Below are positions 3,597 to 16,238 of a stretch of DNA of 64,000 nucleotides, piece by piece. The position numbers were made by a program, and so were the translations under genes. Source of the DNA: the human T2T-CHM13v2.0 reference genome, Homo sapiens; NCBI GenBank assembly GCA_009914755.4, contig CP068257.2, positions 37,568,001 to 37,632,000 of the forward strand, read 5' to 3'. The notes under the pieces were generated by a model. The model did no database searches. It saw only the letters and a program-made list of their open reading frames with translations, and was not told where the DNA came from. The number at the start of each line of letters is the position of its first letter. Positions within the stretch are counted from its first letter, which is position 1.

Positions 3597-3988
3597 CTAT
3601 TGTGCATTTTCTTTCCAGGATCTGAACCCCCTTAAAAAAAGCATTTTTCTATTAATATCTTCTAGCTCTTTTTCACTTTCAGAATTTATGGTTGTATCAT
3701 CCTCTTTATAAACATTCAGTAATTTTTTCTTAGCCGCAGCAGAAGCATTTCGATGGGGCAGTTTTCTGCTACTCTTCCTAATCCAGACATTTTCTGGTCC
3801 TGAGATCGTTTCTTTTAGATTACTCATTATCTTTATTTTATTTGCAGCAACAGTAGCACATCTGCGGGGAACTTTCTCAGGTACCATTTTTGCTTTCAGA
3901 GTTTCACTAGGCATCTGCACTGCATCCTTCTGATTATGCATACATGTTCTCACTTTTGTATTGGGTTCTCTGTCTCTAGGAACAAATT
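3597..3988 (-). CDS. BRWD1: Last coding exon (acceptor ...ctcatttttcag|AATTTG, entered in phase 1) through stop TAG at 3597-3599. Encodes ..[129 protein letters not shown]. Carries copy C of the triplicated motif.
   Basis: 130-codon open frame with good pyrimidine tract and AG. Contains an in-frame third copy of the RRCAxxAANKIK..[17 protein letters not shown] motif shared with the two upstream exons. Phase 1 fits the upstream donors. Confidence 0.75.
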
Positions 3989-6900
3989 CTGAAAAATGAG
4001 TGAAAGTTCATGTAAATGCAAAAATCTTGTAACACAAGATTTTACTACTGCTAACATTCCTCAACAACACTCATTCGGAAACAATAAATTTAAAAGTCAT
4101 ATTGCTAAATGATAAATTTTAAAATGTGATACTAAGGGCTTCTTCACATTGATATAACCTTACATTTGCTTATCTACAACTATAAGGATGTCACTTAAAA
4201 CAGTAGCAGACTTGTAAGAATGGGGTGAAAAGTTCCTTCAGCATCGGCATCATAAAGCTGCTAATCTAAAAACATATATATGAGCATTTTACATAATTTG
4301 AATTACTAAATCTTAACTTCATTGTTCCAGTATTTTCTGACCTAGGTATGTGACACACGAGATTCAGATTAAAATTCTAAAAAATAACACAGAGTTGCTT
4401 TAAGGAACCAAAAAGTGCAGAGTGCTATGAGAACACAGACTGGAAACCTAACCTAGCCTAAGGGATCAAGGAAGGCTTCCTTTAAGGAAGCTTTTAGACG
4501 AGAGGTGAAAATTGTGAAGGGATTTGCCAGACAAAAAGCACTTTGGAGAGTTAACTACTTCATGCAGACTAAGGCAGTTTTTAGAGGGGGCTTGAAATCA
4601 CACTGGAGCTCTACACAGCCACATGATGCCAGAGCTACTACTCCGTGCTGACCAAACTTAGGAGGGCTCAGATATGTTTGTTACCAGTGTCTCAAAGCCA
4701 AATTTTCAAATTTCACAAACAAGTCTAATTAGTACTCTTCTAGAACAGAAGTGATATTCCTTTTACGTATCTGAAGTTCACGGGCCCTTGAATTTTAGGT
4801 CTTTCTTGCAGCCATGAACAGTCAAACTATCTAAAACTGCCTTCATGGTACACACCAATCTTGATGGCAGTTTGTTTTGTAGGACCCTGCCTGAAGTTTC
4901 CAGACACTTAGCATTCAAAAGGTAAGGCTGTAGATCACTGAAATAACCAGTTGATATCCTCCACCCACACTAGACATCTGGAGGACTCCACCACATTCTT
5001 TTTACTACTAAGTACTAGAAAATGAGAGCTCTTTTAGTCAGATACTATCAAGTAACACTATTATTCTGTAGCAATGAAACTACCAATGCCAACCTTCTGA
5101 ACTTTTTCTTCTGTGAAGATGTTTGCCCTTCTGTCACAAAGCTGACTGAAGGGCAGATGAGTACAGGTAAAAACTGCTTCTGTGGACTGACATGTTCATA
5201 CAGCTAGACTAATGAGGCAGGCCTCTGCCCTCACAGTGCAAGCACTTCAGATTTTTCCCTAAGTCTATGAAACTGATTTCACACTTCTCTAAGATCAGTT
5301 GAGCGTTCTCCCCAGAATAGGTTAGGAAATACTTTATTCAAAGCAACCCCACCACATACACATCAGTTCCTTTTGCCAACTAACTTATGTGATTCACATG
5401 TTTTTCCAGTGAAATTCTAAGGGCACTATGTTTTGTTCAGTGTTCAGTCTCCAGGCATTGTAAATGGCATTTTACCAGAGTAAGACACTCATCACGGCAT
5501 TACTCTCATGCAGCATGCCCTTACCTCCTTCAGCTGGACTCTGTGGGAAGAGAAGTGGCTTAAAGTGCACTGTGTTTACCACTTCAAAGACACTTCTCTT
5601 GGGAATTTTAAAATTATGAACTAGTATCTCCAACAAGTCAACCCTATATCCAAAATTAATCTTTAACACATTAAATCAATGTTAGCAAATGCTAAAATGT
5701 AAATATGCTACAAAGGGTAAACAAAAATTTTAAAATATGCAAAATTAAGGTGAAATTTGCACTTTATAGTAGGATGAGAATATACTATTATCAACTAGCT
5801 GCACCATTTGCATTTGGAAGAAAAGAACAGATAACTGGTTCATTCCCAACAACCTATTCATCCAGACAAATAGATAAAATTCTATTTCAACTACAATTTG
5901 TAACAAAATGCTTTAAGTTGCAGAAATTCCATTTTGATGTGTGATCAAAGTACCTATACTGACAATTTAGGAACCTAGTAAATACTAATTCTAACACATT
6001 TTAATAAATGTTTATTTGTCATCCAGAATAATGGAAAAGTTAAGATTCTGCAGGAAAAAAAAAACTAAAATCAGGTTTTTAAAAAATACTTAAGGAAATT
6101 TGAACTTCAGTAACTATGCCCAAGGGAGGGAGAATTTGAATTACACTGTACTCTAACTTGATAAAGCTGAATCTCTTAAGTCTTAGACAATAAAACAGGA
6201 ATTTCAGAGAATAAGGATAAAAACAATCTGAGGAAGACAAAACTGTGGAGAATTTTTTTAAATACATTCAAGTCAGTGTTAATTTTATTACTGAAAACTG
6301 AGTAAATTATAAAGTGCTTTTTCTCAAGAAAACTACAAACAGTTTTAGAAATATATATAGGATATTTCAGGGTTAGAAGTCAAATTTGTGTGTTAGGGTA
6401 CAAGCTTAAGAACTCTGGATGTTGCTGCTCTAACAATGCATTTGTGATGGTGCCATGTGATACTAAGAAGTCAGTAGAATCCCACCAGTCCTACTGCCTC
6501 AGATGAGTCTTGTTTCAGTCATGGGTTTACAAAGTCATTGAGTGCTTGAGGACTTGTTTTCCTGGAAGTGATTCCCTACTTGGGTATGGCAAGAACACAT
6601 CAGTAGTGTAAAACTGTACATCTGTAGTAGCACTCCATGATCATTTCCCTGGATGACCACTTTAAATTATAACTCACAGATATGTGTGTATTCTAAGATG
6701 GTATATGTGGTGAATAGAAACCTGGATACAAACATAACAGTTCTGACTCAACACAATCTCTAGTTTCTACATTTTAAGGATTAATCATATTCTAATTAGA
6801 CTTTTTTTTTATTTTTAAGCTACCTTATTTACAGATTCTGCACAATATTTCATCATACAAAACTGTTTTCCTAAATTCAAAGTAAACTGCATATGGTTAC

Positions 6901-13991: not shown

Positions 13992-15338
13992 CTAAAAGTT
14001 AAAGAGCAGATTTCTATTAATCTTTTGTAAGTCTAAAGGAATTATATGTTCAATATTAAAAACAAGTTCAGAATTCGTATTAATTTGAAGGGGGTATTGC
14101 AGTGAATGGAATGGTACACACCTATTAGTATAGTCATATGTTGCTCAACAGCAAGGATACATTCTGAGAAATGCATCGTTAGGCTATTTCGTCTTAAGCA
14201 AACATCACAGAGTGTGCTTACACAAACCTTACAGTACACCCTACTACACATCTAGGTTATATGGTATAGCCTATTACTCCTAGGCTACAAACCTGTATGA
14301 CATGCTACTGTTCTGAATCCTGCAGGCAGTTGTCACACAATGGTAAGTCTGTGTCTGTGTATCCAAACAGAAAAGGTAATGCACTGCACTAGGACTTGAG
14401 GACAGCTATGATTACTTCACTAAGCAATAGAAATTTTTAACCTTCATTATAATCTTATGAGACCACCACTGTTATGCAGCACATGACTGTACTTTAAAGC
14501 AGTAACTTTTTCATCCTCAGCACCATTCACAAATTCAACACATTCTCAATAACATCCCATGATCTTGACACTATAATATTAACATGAATACAACTAAACT
14601 GTTTACCATAGCACTAGCATATGCAAAGTAATCACTTAACACTCAGCCTCTCTGAAACTCCCCGTAACTCCCCAAGCTCCAATCACACAATTACTTTTCA
14701 TCTTAGTTTTAGCTGTCTTCTGCTCTACAGTATTTTATCAATCCCCATGTACCAGGGGTACAATCTTAATTCAACAAGTTATTTCACCACTTTGTGCTCC
14801 AGTTATTACCTGTAAAATGAACAATAATGCTAGTACCTACTTCATAAAAGAAATGAAGACTAAACTGCTTATTAATGGAAAACATTTAGAAAAACTTCCT
14901 AATAGAAACAGCTCAGTAACTGTTTTATTTGCTATTACTAACATCTCTTTTTATTAAATAGTCCTACCCTTTTTGTCTACTACTTAAGCTATCAACATCA
15001 CAGCTTATAAATGTGCCCCTCTCTGCTTTATTCAAGCCCATCTCTAATATAATATATCCCCATCATCAATACAAGAAGTGAAATCTTCAATAGGCATAGT
15101 TCTTAAGGCCAAGATTGCCTGTTAGGTGAATAAAATTATACTCAATAAAAAGTTACGCATGCACATAAGAATATAAAGGATGAACAGAGAAGGCTAACAC
15201 AGAATGCATGGGAGGGAGAGAAACAGCAAAGAGAAAAAAGTTTCAAGGGAAACTTTTTCGGGGGGAAAAAACCAATGTGTGTAAGAGAAAAGGATGGTGA
15301 GAGTCAATCAGTGAACAAAGATAAATGTTTTGAATTAC

Positions 15339-16238
15339 CTTTCATAAAATTGTTTGGTTTTTCTATTTTGTCATCATCTGAATCTAAATCAGTTTCACAT
15401 CCATGATCTGAGGAACACTGGGACATAGCAATAGGGTCACAGTTCAGATTTCCTGAAATTGGGTTCATTTCCATTTTATGACATTTCCCATCTTCTCTAT
15501 CTTGCTCTTCAGATTCAGAGTCTTCTGAGTCACTCAGAATCTTGGTTTTTTTAAAGAAACTCGCATTCTTGTGAAATGTATTGTATTTCCTACCACCAGA
15601 TCTTCCTGGTTCAGAATCTGCTTCCTCTGAGATGCTCTCTGCCTTAAGTTTCTGCACAGACGTTGATGGGCCAGCAGTTCTGTTACATGCATGATCTGAA
15701 TCATGACTTTTAGAGTCTTCCTCAGAAGACTCTATTTTAAGAAATTTTGTCTTTGAAGGTGCTGGAGTATGGGACTTGTAACCATTAGCATGCCAATTTT
15801 TCCGGGCTACCCGCAAATCACTTTCTGACTCTGAGTCTCTGTTTTCAGATTCATCAACATTGCTCTGGGCAGTGTGAGAACTGGACACTGGTAATGGTTG
15901 ATTTTCATCTTTTAGCTCCTCTTCTTCAATTTCTGACTTTAAGCTCTGTTCATCTTCAGAATTATGTAATAACTTTTTTCTAGCTACAGCAGAAGCATTG
16001 CGGTGAGGCAGCTTCCGACCAGAACAGACACTTTCAGAGCTAGAATTCTCTTCTACATCACTCATTAGCTTTATTTTATTGGCAGCCACAGCAGCACACT
16101 TCCTTAAGACTTTTCGGTTATTTCCAGCTCTGGCTTTTAGAATTTCACCAGTCTCCAATGAATTGTTATCAGAATCACTTAAATAGACTCTCTTTCGAGT
16201 GGCTTTTCTGCCACATCCATTTGCTAATGAAACGGGAC
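15339..16238 (-). CDS. BRWD1: 900-nt coding exon, acceptor ccttatttctag|GTCCCG, donor ATGAAAG|gtaatt, phase 1-1. Encodes [97 protein letters not shown]...[15 protein letters not shown] (copy A of the motif).
   Basis: 300-codon open frame bounded by strong splice sites. Acidic serine clusters are present. The phase matches neighbouring exons. Confidence 0.88.

What the first reader, a model, noticed from the sequence alone, without database searches (positions are those of the whole stretch)
3597..16238. Triplicated motif of about 55 aa, one copy in each of the last three coding exons
Each of the three large 3' exons contains one in-frame copy of a basic motif:
- copy A (about 15962-16112): [57 protein letters not shown]
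- copy B (about 13712-13868): [59 protein letters not shown]
- copy C (about 3713-3872): [61 protein letters not shown]

The similarity also shows at DNA level (ctcattagctttattttattggcagccacagcagcacacttcc versus ctcattatctttattttatttgcagcaacagtagcacatctgcg). This argues for an exon-segment duplication rather than convergent composition.

I know of no described domain with the consensus R-[RK]-C-A-x-[VT]-A-A-N-K-I-K-[LI]-M-S ... [10 protein letters not shown]-x-A-K-K-K-L-L. It is absent from the shorter paralogues PHIP and BRWD3, so it may be a BRWD1-specific interaction, NLS or phospho-regulated module. That last point is speculation.
Basis: seen in the sequence. Interest (0 to 1): 0.5.

Follow-up and report, generated by a model that had tools for sequence, protein, structure and literature searches.

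The report
Triplicated terminal-exon module in BRWD1
The last three coding exons of human BRWD1 are old tandem copies of one ancestral final exon, and each keeps a conserved, undescribed ~70-residue motif that PHIP lacks and a BRWD3-type sister gene also appears to lack; this marks the first likely functional site in a tail usually treated as featureless.

Summary
Three in-frame copies lie on the minus strand at 15931-16140, 13681-13896 and 3675-3902. They score 14-33 SD above shuffled controls, and no fourth copy exists in the window.

The duplicated unit is the whole exon, not a 55-aa segment. Exons A (900 nt) and B (918 nt) align end to end, are both phase 1-1, and carry the motif 41-46 codons from the acceptor.

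Exon B plus an open, strongly constrained read-through (omega 0.11) ends in the [11 protein letters not shown]..DD tail that also ends PHIP and the BRWD3-type paralogue. It is therefore the ancestral terminal exon. Exon C looks like a truncated counterpart of the sauropsid terminal unit.

Copy number varies: one in frogs, two in a bird, three in tuatara and mammals. PHIP and a BRWD3-type locus lack the motif (best 6.8 bits). Pfam, PDB and the literature hold nothing similar.

Human copies have saturated dS but low dN (omega 0.17-0.25), so selection keeps them alike.

AF2 predicts one short helix ([15 protein letters not shown]) followed by a disordered RK-X10-[RK]KK basic cluster. Function is untested. 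The likeliest role is a docking or nuclear-targeting element.

This is a modest, genuine, unannotated finding.

The parts
15339..16238 (-). Exon A (900 nt, intron phase 1 in and 1 out); alpha-type unit.
   Evidence: Acceptor ttatttctAG|g and donor aaag|GTaatt. The junction to exon B is confirmed by lemur P0042 and squirrel P0045.
15931..16140 (-). Motif copy A (HMM envelope).
   Evidence: 106.8 bits. It is the most conserved stretch of exon A: 0.73-0.86 identity against 0.3-0.6 for the flanks.
16060..16104 (-). Half-motif 1 of copy [16 protein letters not shown]; predicted helix.
   Evidence: It is the only secondary-structure element in the AF2 model, in the blocks with the highest pLDDT (~75). 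Coordinates.
15967..16017 (-). Half-motif 2 of copy [18 protein letters not shown]; bipartite basic cluster RK-X10-RKK.
   Evidence: Regex hit at exon residue 75. Predicted non-regular.
13074..13991 (-). Exon B as spliced (918 nt, phase 1-1); alpha-type unit.
   Evidence: Acceptor aacttttAG|a and donor aaaag|GTaaaa. It aligns with exon A over ~300 aa.
13681..13896 (-). Motif copy B. Half-motif 1 is intact (helix equivalent 13816-13860). Half-motif 2 is degenerate (RKKPLHLACTTAKKKLS, 13714-13764).
   Evidence: 100.9 bits. Conservation is 0.75 for half 1 against 0.5-0.6 for half 2.
12835..13073 (-). Read-through extension of exon B to a stop codon at 12837-12835: an alternative C-terminus of 79 residues, GKTFTANISK...NGCTL.
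   Evidence: The frame stays open past the donor. Omega is 0.11 and aa identity 0.91 against a second mammal. The extension is present in lemur, squirrel, opossum, turtle and bird proteins.
12883..12942 (-). Conserved tail [20 protein letters not shown], shared with the C-termini of PHIP and the BRWD3-type paralogue.
   Evidence: 0.90-0.91 identity across orthologues. PHIP has [17 protein letters not shown] and the BRWD3-type locus has [19 protein letters not shown].
3597..3988 (-). Exon C (enters in phase 1; 130 codons plus stop at 3599-3597); beta-type, truncated unit.
   Evidence: Acceptor catttttcAG|a. The leader resembles tuatara unit 3 (z = 5.6-6.6) and the bird terminal unit (z = 3.5-4.4), not most alpha leaders.
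3675..3902 (-). Motif copy C (helix equivalent 3822-3866; basic half 3717-3767).
   Evidence: 129.3 bits. Omega is 0.14 in the motif against 0.39 in the rest of the exon. AF2 predicts a helix at residues 43-63.

Best explanation
**What it is.** The window holds the 3' part of human BRWD1. Its last three coding exons are paralogues of a single ancestral terminal exon.

That ancestral exon still exists as one copy in frog BRWD1. Its layout is:
- an RKRxxxSDS leader;
- a ~70-residue module;
- a long Ser/Glu/Lys-rich disordered body;
- a [11 protein letters not shown]..DD tail.

**How it arose.** Tandem duplication of this phase-1 exon gave 2-3 units in amniotes. In mammals:
- Exon A is an upstream duplicate.
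- Exon B is the ancestral terminal exon. It can be spliced at an internal donor, or read through to the old tail.
- Exon C is a truncated third unit that supplies a new C-terminus.

**Anatomy of the module.**
1. R-[RK]-[CS]-A-A-x-A-A-N-K-[IL]-[KR]-x-M-S, predicted to form a ~15-residue helix.
2. An acidic Ser-rich linker.
3. [10 protein letters not shown]-x-A-[RK]-K-K-L-L, a disordered basic segment that fits the classical bipartite NLS spacing.

**Shown here.** The anatomy, the duplication history, the purifying selection, and the absence from PHIP and from a BRWD3-type locus.

**Inferred.** The module is a short docking element in a disordered tail. Half 1 is kept in every copy, which suggests a valency-dependent partner or chromatin contact. 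Half 2 is kept fully in only one or two copies per protein, as expected if one good copy is enough, for example for importin-alpha-dependent nuclear targeting. The choice of 3' end swaps the ancestral tail for a third module.
For: **Gene identity.** The BD2 exons match PDB entry 3q2e (BRWD1) at 97-100%.

**Exon duplication.**
- A-B z = 33 over ~300 aa; z = 17 with the motif removed.
- Phases are 1-1, 1-1 and 1-stop. Exon lengths are 900 and 918 nt. The motif starts 41-46 codons after each acceptor.

**Exon B plus its extension is the ancestral end.**
- The open read-through has omega 0.11 and tail identity 0.90-0.91.
- The same tail ends PHIP (L003, L004) and the BRWD3-type gene (L005).
- The bird contig keeps a tail relic directly after its first unit.

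**Copy number by lineage.**
- Frogs: 1.
- Newt: 1, plus extra half-motifs.
- Bird: 2.
- Turtle: 2 in the fragment held.
- Tuatara: 3.
- Mammals: 3.

**Selection rather than gene conversion.** Between human paralogues dS is 1.4-2.4 (saturated) and motif omega is 0.17-0.25. Orthologue omega is 0.14 in the copy C motif. The motif is the conservation peak of exon A.

**Specificity.** Only 37 hits in 1.84 billion representative proteins. Every hit whose source gives a gene name is called BRWD1.

**Structure.** AF2 on two independent alignments puts a helix on half 1 and little else of any confidence.

**Bipartite pattern.** It sits at residues 75-77 of all three exons.

**Context.** BRWD1 localisation in spermatids depends on importin alpha7 (PMC8513612).
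Against: **Function.**
- Function is not tested at all.
- The bipartite basic pattern is not individually significant in exons B and C (P = 0.35 and 0.22).
- The linker LPHRNASA is far more conserved than NLS linkers usually are.
- AF2 confidence is low overall (mean pLDDT ~59).
- The helix is not significantly amphipathic (P = 0.1-0.18).

**Splicing and 3' ends.**
- The B-to-C splice junction rests on splice signals and phase only. There is no transcript or protein evidence for it here.
- Poly(A) use after the exon B extension is unproven. The first AATAAA lies ~2 kb downstream.

**Orthology and sampling.**
- Orthology of exon C with the sauropsid terminal unit rests on moderate leader similarity (z = 3.5-6.6).
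- The BRWD3 label of L005 and L006 rests on my recollection of the BRWD3 linker and on exclusion.
- No fish BRWD1 was sampled.
Confidence: 0.7

Rival explanations
1. The module is essentially a classical bipartite nuclear localisation signal (RK-X10-[RK]KK) with a helical flank, repeated by duplication. Its only role is importin-alpha-dependent import of BRWD1.
For: - The pattern sits at the homologous position in all three human copies.
- The basic-cluster spacing survives in human copy B and the bird terminal units even where the linker has decayed.
- Half 2 is fully kept in only one or two copies per protein.
- BRWD1 localisation depends on importin alpha7 in spermatids.
Against: - Half 1, which has no NLS character, is the part kept in every copy.
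- The NLS linker is unusually conserved: 0.78-0.91 identity in copies A and C.
- The frog version (SRTLPQRTAAEKAKKRLL) lacks a clean first basic pair.
- The regex hit is not significant in exons B and C.
Confidence: 0.3
2. The resemblance is compositional: three lysine/serine-rich disordered stretches that look alike by chance or by convergence.
For: The exons are strongly Ser/Glu/Lys-rich and are predicted to be disordered.
Against: - Scores lie 14-33 SD above composition-preserving shuffles. Block shuffles that keep local composition give the same result.
- Core codons are 74-81% identical.
- Intron phase and motif offset are the same in each exon.
- Orthologous copies are traceable from frogs to mammals.
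Confidence: 0.01
3. The copies are neutral leftovers of duplication, or are kept alike by gene conversion, with no function of their own.
For: The turtle and tuatara alpha units look much more alike by eye than human A and B do (not measured), which could reflect conversion or recent duplication. Half-motif 2 of copy B is decaying.
Against: - Synonymous sites are saturated between human copies (pS 0.64-0.72) while motif dN stays low, so there has been no recent conversion in this lineage.
- Orthologue omega is 0.14 in the copy C motif against 0.39 in its flanks.
- The motif is the conservation peak of exon A across amniotes.
Confidence: 0.05
4. Half-motif 1 is an HMGN-like arginine anchor for the nucleosome acidic patch (RRSAAVAA in sauropsids, compared with RRSARLSA in HMGN). 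The basic half then contacts DNA, giving a chromatin reader extra multivalent nucleosome contacts.
For: - From my own knowledge of HMGN: 5 of 8 residues are identical to the HMGN core in the sauropsid and frog versions (sequences).
- A Lys-rich segment follows, as in HMGN.
- BRWD1 is a chromatin reader.
Against: - Pfam, which includes HMG14_17, gives no hit at E <= 1.
- The third Arg of RRSAR is Ala in all copies.
- Mammals have Cys in place of the Ser.
- AF2 predicts a helix, whereas the HMGN core binds in an extended form.
- The resemblance is recalled from memory and is not scored.
Confidence: 0.1

Closest known systems
Tandem exon duplication of symmetric (phase 1-1) exons producing internal protein repeats
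   Same: The exons are adjacent in one gene and on one strand, similar in length (900 and 918 nt), and identical in phase. Homology runs over the whole exon, and frogs supply a single-copy outgroup state.
   Different: The duplicated exon was the terminal one, tail included. One copy therefore kept a dual role as internal and terminal exon, and the last copy is truncated. The repeat is a disordered multi-motif unit, not a folded domain.
Composite or alternative last exons (internal 5' splice site competing with read-through and intronic polyadenylation)
   Same: Exon B has a usable donor. It also has an open, strongly constrained continuation to a stop codon, and that continuation encodes the family's ancestral C-terminus.
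   Different: Poly(A) usage and isoform ratios were not measurable here. The alternative end replaces the tail with another copy of the same module.
Classical bipartite NLS (nucleoplasmin type, KR-X10-12-K/R-rich)
   Same: Two basic clusters sit 10 residues apart in a disordered segment, preceded by an acidic Ser-rich stretch.
   Different: The linker is highly conserved, the element is coupled to a conserved helix, and no import assay exists. The statistical support is weak.
PHIP and the BRWD3-type paralogue: C-terminal regions
   Same: They share the gene architecture up to BD2 and the terminal [11 protein letters not shown]..DD tail.
   Different: They have no copy of the module. PHIP instead has three AT-hook-like GRKPK motifs before the tail. 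The BRWD3-type gene has poly-Ser and poly-Glu tracts there.
HMGN nucleosome-binding core RRSARLSA
   Same: An RRSA start, small residues after it, and a Lys-rich segment downstream, in a chromatin protein.
   Different: It lacks the third Arg, is predicted to be helical, and has no profile match. It is not a member.

Membership tests
Human BRWD1 locus (identity of the window) | Encodes BRWD1 bromodomain 2. | tested here: met
   The PDB 3q2e construct maps to 27500-27384, 26745-26590 and 22860-22765 (minus strand) at 97-100% identity. The opossum orthologue of exons A and B is named BRWD1.
Tandem exon duplication | Significant similarity over the whole exon, not just a motif. | tested here: met
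   A-B scores 350 (z = 33) over ~305 aa. With the motif removed, z = 17. For exon C only the first ~108 aa align (z = 20).
Tandem exon duplication | Same intron phase at both ends, similar length, same internal register. | tested here: met
   Phases are 1-1 (A), 1-1 (B) and 1-stop (C). Lengths are 900 and 918 nt. The motif starts 41-46 codons after each acceptor.
Tandem exon duplication | A single-copy state in an outgroup. | tested here: met
   Frog BRWD1 proteins P0111, P0123 and P0116, and contig L001, have one motif followed by the tail. Fish were not sampled.
Composite or alternative terminal exon (exon B) | A coding, selected continuation past the internal donor. | tested here: met
   79 further codons (78 aligned) give omega 0.11 and 0.91 aa identity against a second mammal. 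The tail is homologous to the PHIP and BRWD3-type C-termini.
Composite or alternative terminal exon (exon B) | A poly(A) site and transcripts ending there. | not testable with these tools
   Only hexamer positions are available. The first AATAAA lies ~2 kb downstream, at 10834. No transcript data are held.
Classical bipartite NLS | Two basic clusters separated by 10-12 residues. | tested here: met
   [30 protein letters not shown] and [15 protein letters not shown], at residues 75-77 of each exon.
Classical bipartite NLS | The pattern occurs more often than composition predicts. | tested here: inconclusive
   P = 0.023 for exon A, 0.35 for B and 0.22 for C, against shuffles.
Classical bipartite NLS | Importin-alpha binding and import activity. 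| not testable with these tools
   Context only: BRWD1 localisation depends on Kpna6.
Any curated protein domain (Pfam-A) or solved structure | A profile or sequence match. | tested here: not met
   Pfam gave no family for exons A and B at E <= 1, and only a chance-level hit for C (UQCC3, 13.6 bits against a cut-off of 33.6). PDB phmmer and profile searches gave nothing at E <= 1 and E <= 10.
HMGN nucleosome-binding domain | The RRSARLSA core with a profile match to HMG14_17. | tested here: not met
   No Pfam hit at E <= 1. The third Arg is replaced by Ala in all copies.
Module shared by the BRWD family (PHIP, BRWD3) | Presence of the motif between BD2 and the stop codon of the paralogues. | tested here: not met
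   The best score on the PHIP contigs L003 and L004 is 6.8 bits (E = 1.4). On the BRWD3-type contigs L005 and L006 it is 5.9 bits (E = 0.55). BRWD1 copies score 90-129 bits.

The most novel reading that the evidence does not exclude
The module is a previously unrecognised, tetrapod BRWD1-specific docking motif for a chromatin partner or the nucleosome itself. Evolution has tuned its valency between 1 and 3 copies. In mammals it is also switched per transcript: reading through exon B gives two modules plus the ancestral family tail, while splicing to exon C gives three modules and no tail. On this reading, the functions that set BRWD1 apart from PHIP and BRWD3 (in B-cell chromatin, spermiogenesis and oocytes) would map to this element.
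Probability: 0.25. Interest if true: 0.6.

Novelty: new member of a known kind. Interest (0 to 1): 0.4.

Why it matters
The C-terminal ~900 residues of BRWD1, more than a third of the protein, are described in the literature only as a long disordered coil.

This analysis gives that region a concrete anatomy:
- repeated units;
- one sharply conserved ~70-residue module per unit;
- a family-wide tail;
- two alternative C-termini.

It also gives defined targets for mutagenesis, peptide pull-downs and import assays. The module is the clearest sequence difference found here between BRWD1 and PHIP or the BRWD3-type paralogue downstream of the bromodomains. That makes it a natural candidate for BRWD1-specific functions.

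The locus is also a clean example of terminal-exon duplication that created both an internal repeat and an alternative last exon.

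Tried and rejected
- **Hand-written regex for core 1.** It was mis-specified and found nothing. I replaced it with HMMs.
- **Full-length PHIP or BRWD3 from the protein databases.** The word-indexed search returned only fragments of 215 aa or less. 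I reconstructed the paralogue 3' ends from contigs instead.
- **'Fish' label.** I first called the single-copy proteins fish. The cluster look-up showed they are amphibian.
- **Tail relic after human exon A.** None was found; scores fall within the shuffle range. A relic does exist after the first unit in the bird contig.
- **Amphipathic-helix claim.** The hydrophobic moment is not significant, so I dropped it.
- **HMGN-like nucleosome-binding core.** This was recalled from memory, has no profile support, and is kept only as a low-probability rival.
- **USP7-binding motif.** All three paralogues are USP7 substrates, so a BRWD1-only module is not needed to explain that. I did not pursue it.
- **Poly(A) hexamer scan.** Too unspecific to decide 3'-end usage.
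- **Structure-library searches.** I did not run them, because the models are single low-confidence helices.

Full report
**1. Observation.**

Local alignment of the three open frames against 500 composition-preserving shuffles:

| Pair | Score | z |
|---|---|---|
| A-B | 350 (null 57.6 +/- 8.9) | 33 |
| A-C | 175 | 20 |
| B-C | 123 | 14.6 |

The 19 codons of the first core are 74-81% identical at DNA level. An HMM built from 23 diverse copies was run at maximum sensitivity on all six frames. It finds exactly three copies in the 64-kb window, at 129, 107 and 101 bits. Nothing else scores above 6 bits.

**2. The repeated unit is the exon.**

The A-B alignment does not stop at the motif. It runs about 305 residues. 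With the motif cut out, the downstream parts still score 196 against 50 +/- 8.5 (z = 17), and the upstream leaders (RKRVxxSDSD) give z = 10.6.

Exon anatomy from the DNA:

| Exon | Coordinates | Length | Acceptor | Donor or stop | Phase |
|---|---|---|---|---|---|
| A | 16238-15339 | 900 nt | ttctAG | GTaatt | 1-1 |
| B | 13991-13074 | 918 nt | ttttAG | GTaaaa | 1-1 |
| C | 3988-3600 | 389 nt | tttcAG | stop 3599-3597 | enters in phase 1 |

- The motif begins 41-46 codons after each acceptor.
- Joining A+B+C gives one open frame ending in a single stop.
- The A-B junction (NNFMK-D-S..QDNG) is seen in the lemur and squirrel proteins P0042 and P0045.
- The window is human BRWD1. The crystallised BD2 (PDB 3q2e) maps at 97-100% identity to three upstream exons.

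**3. Exon B is also the ancestral last exon.**

The frame of exon B stays open for 79 codons beyond its donor, to a stop at 12837-12835. It ends ...[35 protein letters not shown].

- This extension is the most conserved part of the whole region, at 0.90-0.91 identity across about 50 orthologous fragments.
- Its omega is 0.11 against a second mammal, compared with 0.36 for the spliced part of exon B.
- Lemur, squirrel, opossum, turtle and bird protein records all end with it.

To compare the paralogues I took the PHIP BD2 sequence from PDB entry 3mb3. I used it to find PHIP exon ORFs and pulled their contigs.

- L003 and L004 contain PHIP from BD2 to the stop codon. The last exon ends ...[22 protein letters not shown]...KAKANLIGW.
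- A third paralogue on L005 ends ...[19 protein letters not shown]...HLMGWNH. I label it BRWD3-type from its BD2 and linker sequence and by exclusion.

The tail is therefore a family feature. Exon B plus its read-through is the ancestral terminal exon of BRWD1.

**4. Paralogue specificity.**

The motif HMM gives at best 6.8 bits (E = 1.4) on the PHIP contigs and 5.9 bits (E = 0.55) on the BRWD3-type contigs, against 90-129 bits for real copies.

An exhaustive profile search covered 1.84 billion representative proteins with a 364-position profile of the whole unit. It returned only 37 hits. Every hit whose source gives a gene name is called BRWD1. By BD2 score the long hits are closer to BRWD1 than to PHIP.

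Pfam, PDB sequence and profile searches, and a full-text search for the motif strings all returned nothing. A preprint on BRWD1 structure describes the last ~900 residues only as disordered coil.

**5. History.**

| Lineage | Protein or contig | Units |
|---|---|---|
| Frogs (*Eleutherodactylus*, *Leptobrachium*, *Hymenochirus*, *Aquarana*) | P0111, P0123, P0116, P0113 | 1, followed by the tail |
| Newt (*Lissotriton*) | P0110 | 1 full motif, plus free-standing copies of the basic half |
| Bird | contig L007 | 2, between BD2 and the stop; the first is followed by a decayed tail relic |
| Turtle (*Terrapene*) | P0072 | 2 in the fragment held; they look much more alike than human A and B (by eye, not measured) |
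| Tuatara (*Sphenodon*) | P0098 | 3 full ~330-aa units |
| Mammals | this window, L008 | 3 |

Leader sequences split the units into two types.
- Alpha (RKRxxxSDS): human A and B, and the first units of sauropsids. Human A scores z = 9.6-16.6 against most alpha leaders, and 5.9 against the second tuatara unit.
- Beta (LRSRTCxxNY): the bird and tuatara terminal units.
- The human exon C leader matches beta: z = 5.6-6.6 to tuatara unit 3 and 3.5-4.4 to the bird unit. It scores at most 1.2 against human A and the sauropsid alpha leaders, and 3.3-3.4 against human B.

Exon C is therefore most likely the truncated counterpart of the sauropsid terminal unit, not a recent mammalian copy. This step is inference from moderate scores.

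Between the human copies, synonymous sites are saturated (pS 0.64-0.72, dS 1.4-2.4), even inside the motif, while motif omega is 0.17-0.25. The copies are old, and their likeness is maintained by selection rather than recent gene conversion.

**6. Anatomy and constraint of the module.**

Conservation along exon A peaks over residues 41-100, at 0.73-0.86 against 0.3-0.6 in the flanks. Smaller islands lie at SSEEDSKSH and [10 protein letters not shown].

In mammalian copy B, and in the bird terminal units, half 1 (R-R-C-A-A-x-A-A-N-K-I-K-x-M-S) is kept. Half 2 ([10 protein letters not shown]-x-A-K-K-K-L-L) has decayed. In copy C the motif has omega 0.14, against 0.39 for the rest of the exon.

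AF2 with a cross-copy alignment predicts a single helix on [15 protein letters not shown], in the blocks with pLDDT ~75. Everything else is non-regular. A second run on exon C with its own orthologues again places a helix there, plus two weaker ones. Both models have a mean pLDDT of about 59, so this is a tendency, not a fold. The helix is not significantly amphipathic.

Half 2 fits RK-X10-[RK]KK at residues 75-77 of each exon. The pattern exceeds chance only in exon A (P = 0.023).

**7. Mechanism.**

Shown here:
- a selected ~70-residue element inside a disordered, duplicated exon;
- absence from PHIP and from a BRWD3-type locus;
- variable copy number;
- two alternative C-termini.

Inferred: it is a short docking element.

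Half 1 is retained in every copy, which suggests a contact whose strength depends on valency. Half 2 is fully retained in only one or two copies per protein, as expected of a signal for which one good copy suffices. With its spacing, that points to nuclear targeting.

BRWD1 localisation does depend on importin alpha7 in spermatids, though no NLS has been mapped (PMC8513612).

I put about 0.9 on the anatomy and history, and about 0.35 on any specific function.

**8. Verdict.**

It needed three corrections:
- the unit is the whole terminal exon;
- the duplications are ancient;
- the module is tetrapod-wide.

It is a new, unannotated example of a familiar process: tandem duplication of a symmetric exon creating an internal repeat and an alternative last exon. 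It is useful to people working on BRWD1 but not surprising in kind.

**Limits.**
- No transcript data.
- The paralogue tests used non-human contigs.
- The BRWD3 label rests partly on my memory.
- Fish BRWD1 was not sampled.

Noticed in passing
L003:10385-11086 and L004:8896-9627: The terminal exon of PHIP carries three AT-hook-like GRKPK motifs (KRGPGRKPK, KKRGRKPKK, GRGGRKPKRK) upstream of the shared TRNQGRRT tail. BRWD1 carries its own repeated module in the equivalent region. So the two paralogues have different repeated basic elements in the same place.
   Followed up: no
window 15514-15591 (exon A residues 217-242): Exon A contains a second, internal look-alike of the basic half-motif: [26 protein letters not shown] against [25 protein letters not shown]. 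It gives a secondary HMM domain of 8.9 bits (i-E = 0.33). Newt BRWD1 (P0110) has free-standing copies such as RRLLPHKASAAVKKKL. The half-motif may be an older repeat in its own right.
   Followed up: partly
P0030 and P0037 (public assemblies): These ORFs of exon C and exon B show systematic A>V, P>L/F, S>F, T>I and H>Y changes. They look like assemblies of bisulfite-converted (C>T) reads rather than real variants.
   Followed up: no
P0034 (ENA, 140 aa, PF19567): A chimeric ORF: a bacterial-type N-terminus fused in frame to primate BRWD1 exon A ([18 protein letters not shown]...). It is probably a metagenome mis-assembly involving host DNA.
   Followed up: no
L007:12400-12224 (minus strand; the same place as L002:4133-3957): A weak match to the basic half-motif lies on the opposite strand, in the bird intron between the two units (10.9 bits; E = 0.014 in that small search). 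It could be chance or an inverted relic.
   Followed up: no
P0113 (Aquarana catesbeiana, 690 aa): Bullfrog BRWD1 has a different triple internal repeat of roughly 130-150 aa between its single motif and the tail (...HRQLKECRVVLTNCVAEANAYLRSPCLDRPLP...). This shows independent repeat expansion in the same region.
   Followed up: no
window 12838-13073: About 236 bases that look like the start of an intron in the long isoform are among the most constrained coding sequence in the region (omega 0.11). A reader relying on splice sites alone would miss this alternative C-terminus.
   Followed up: yes
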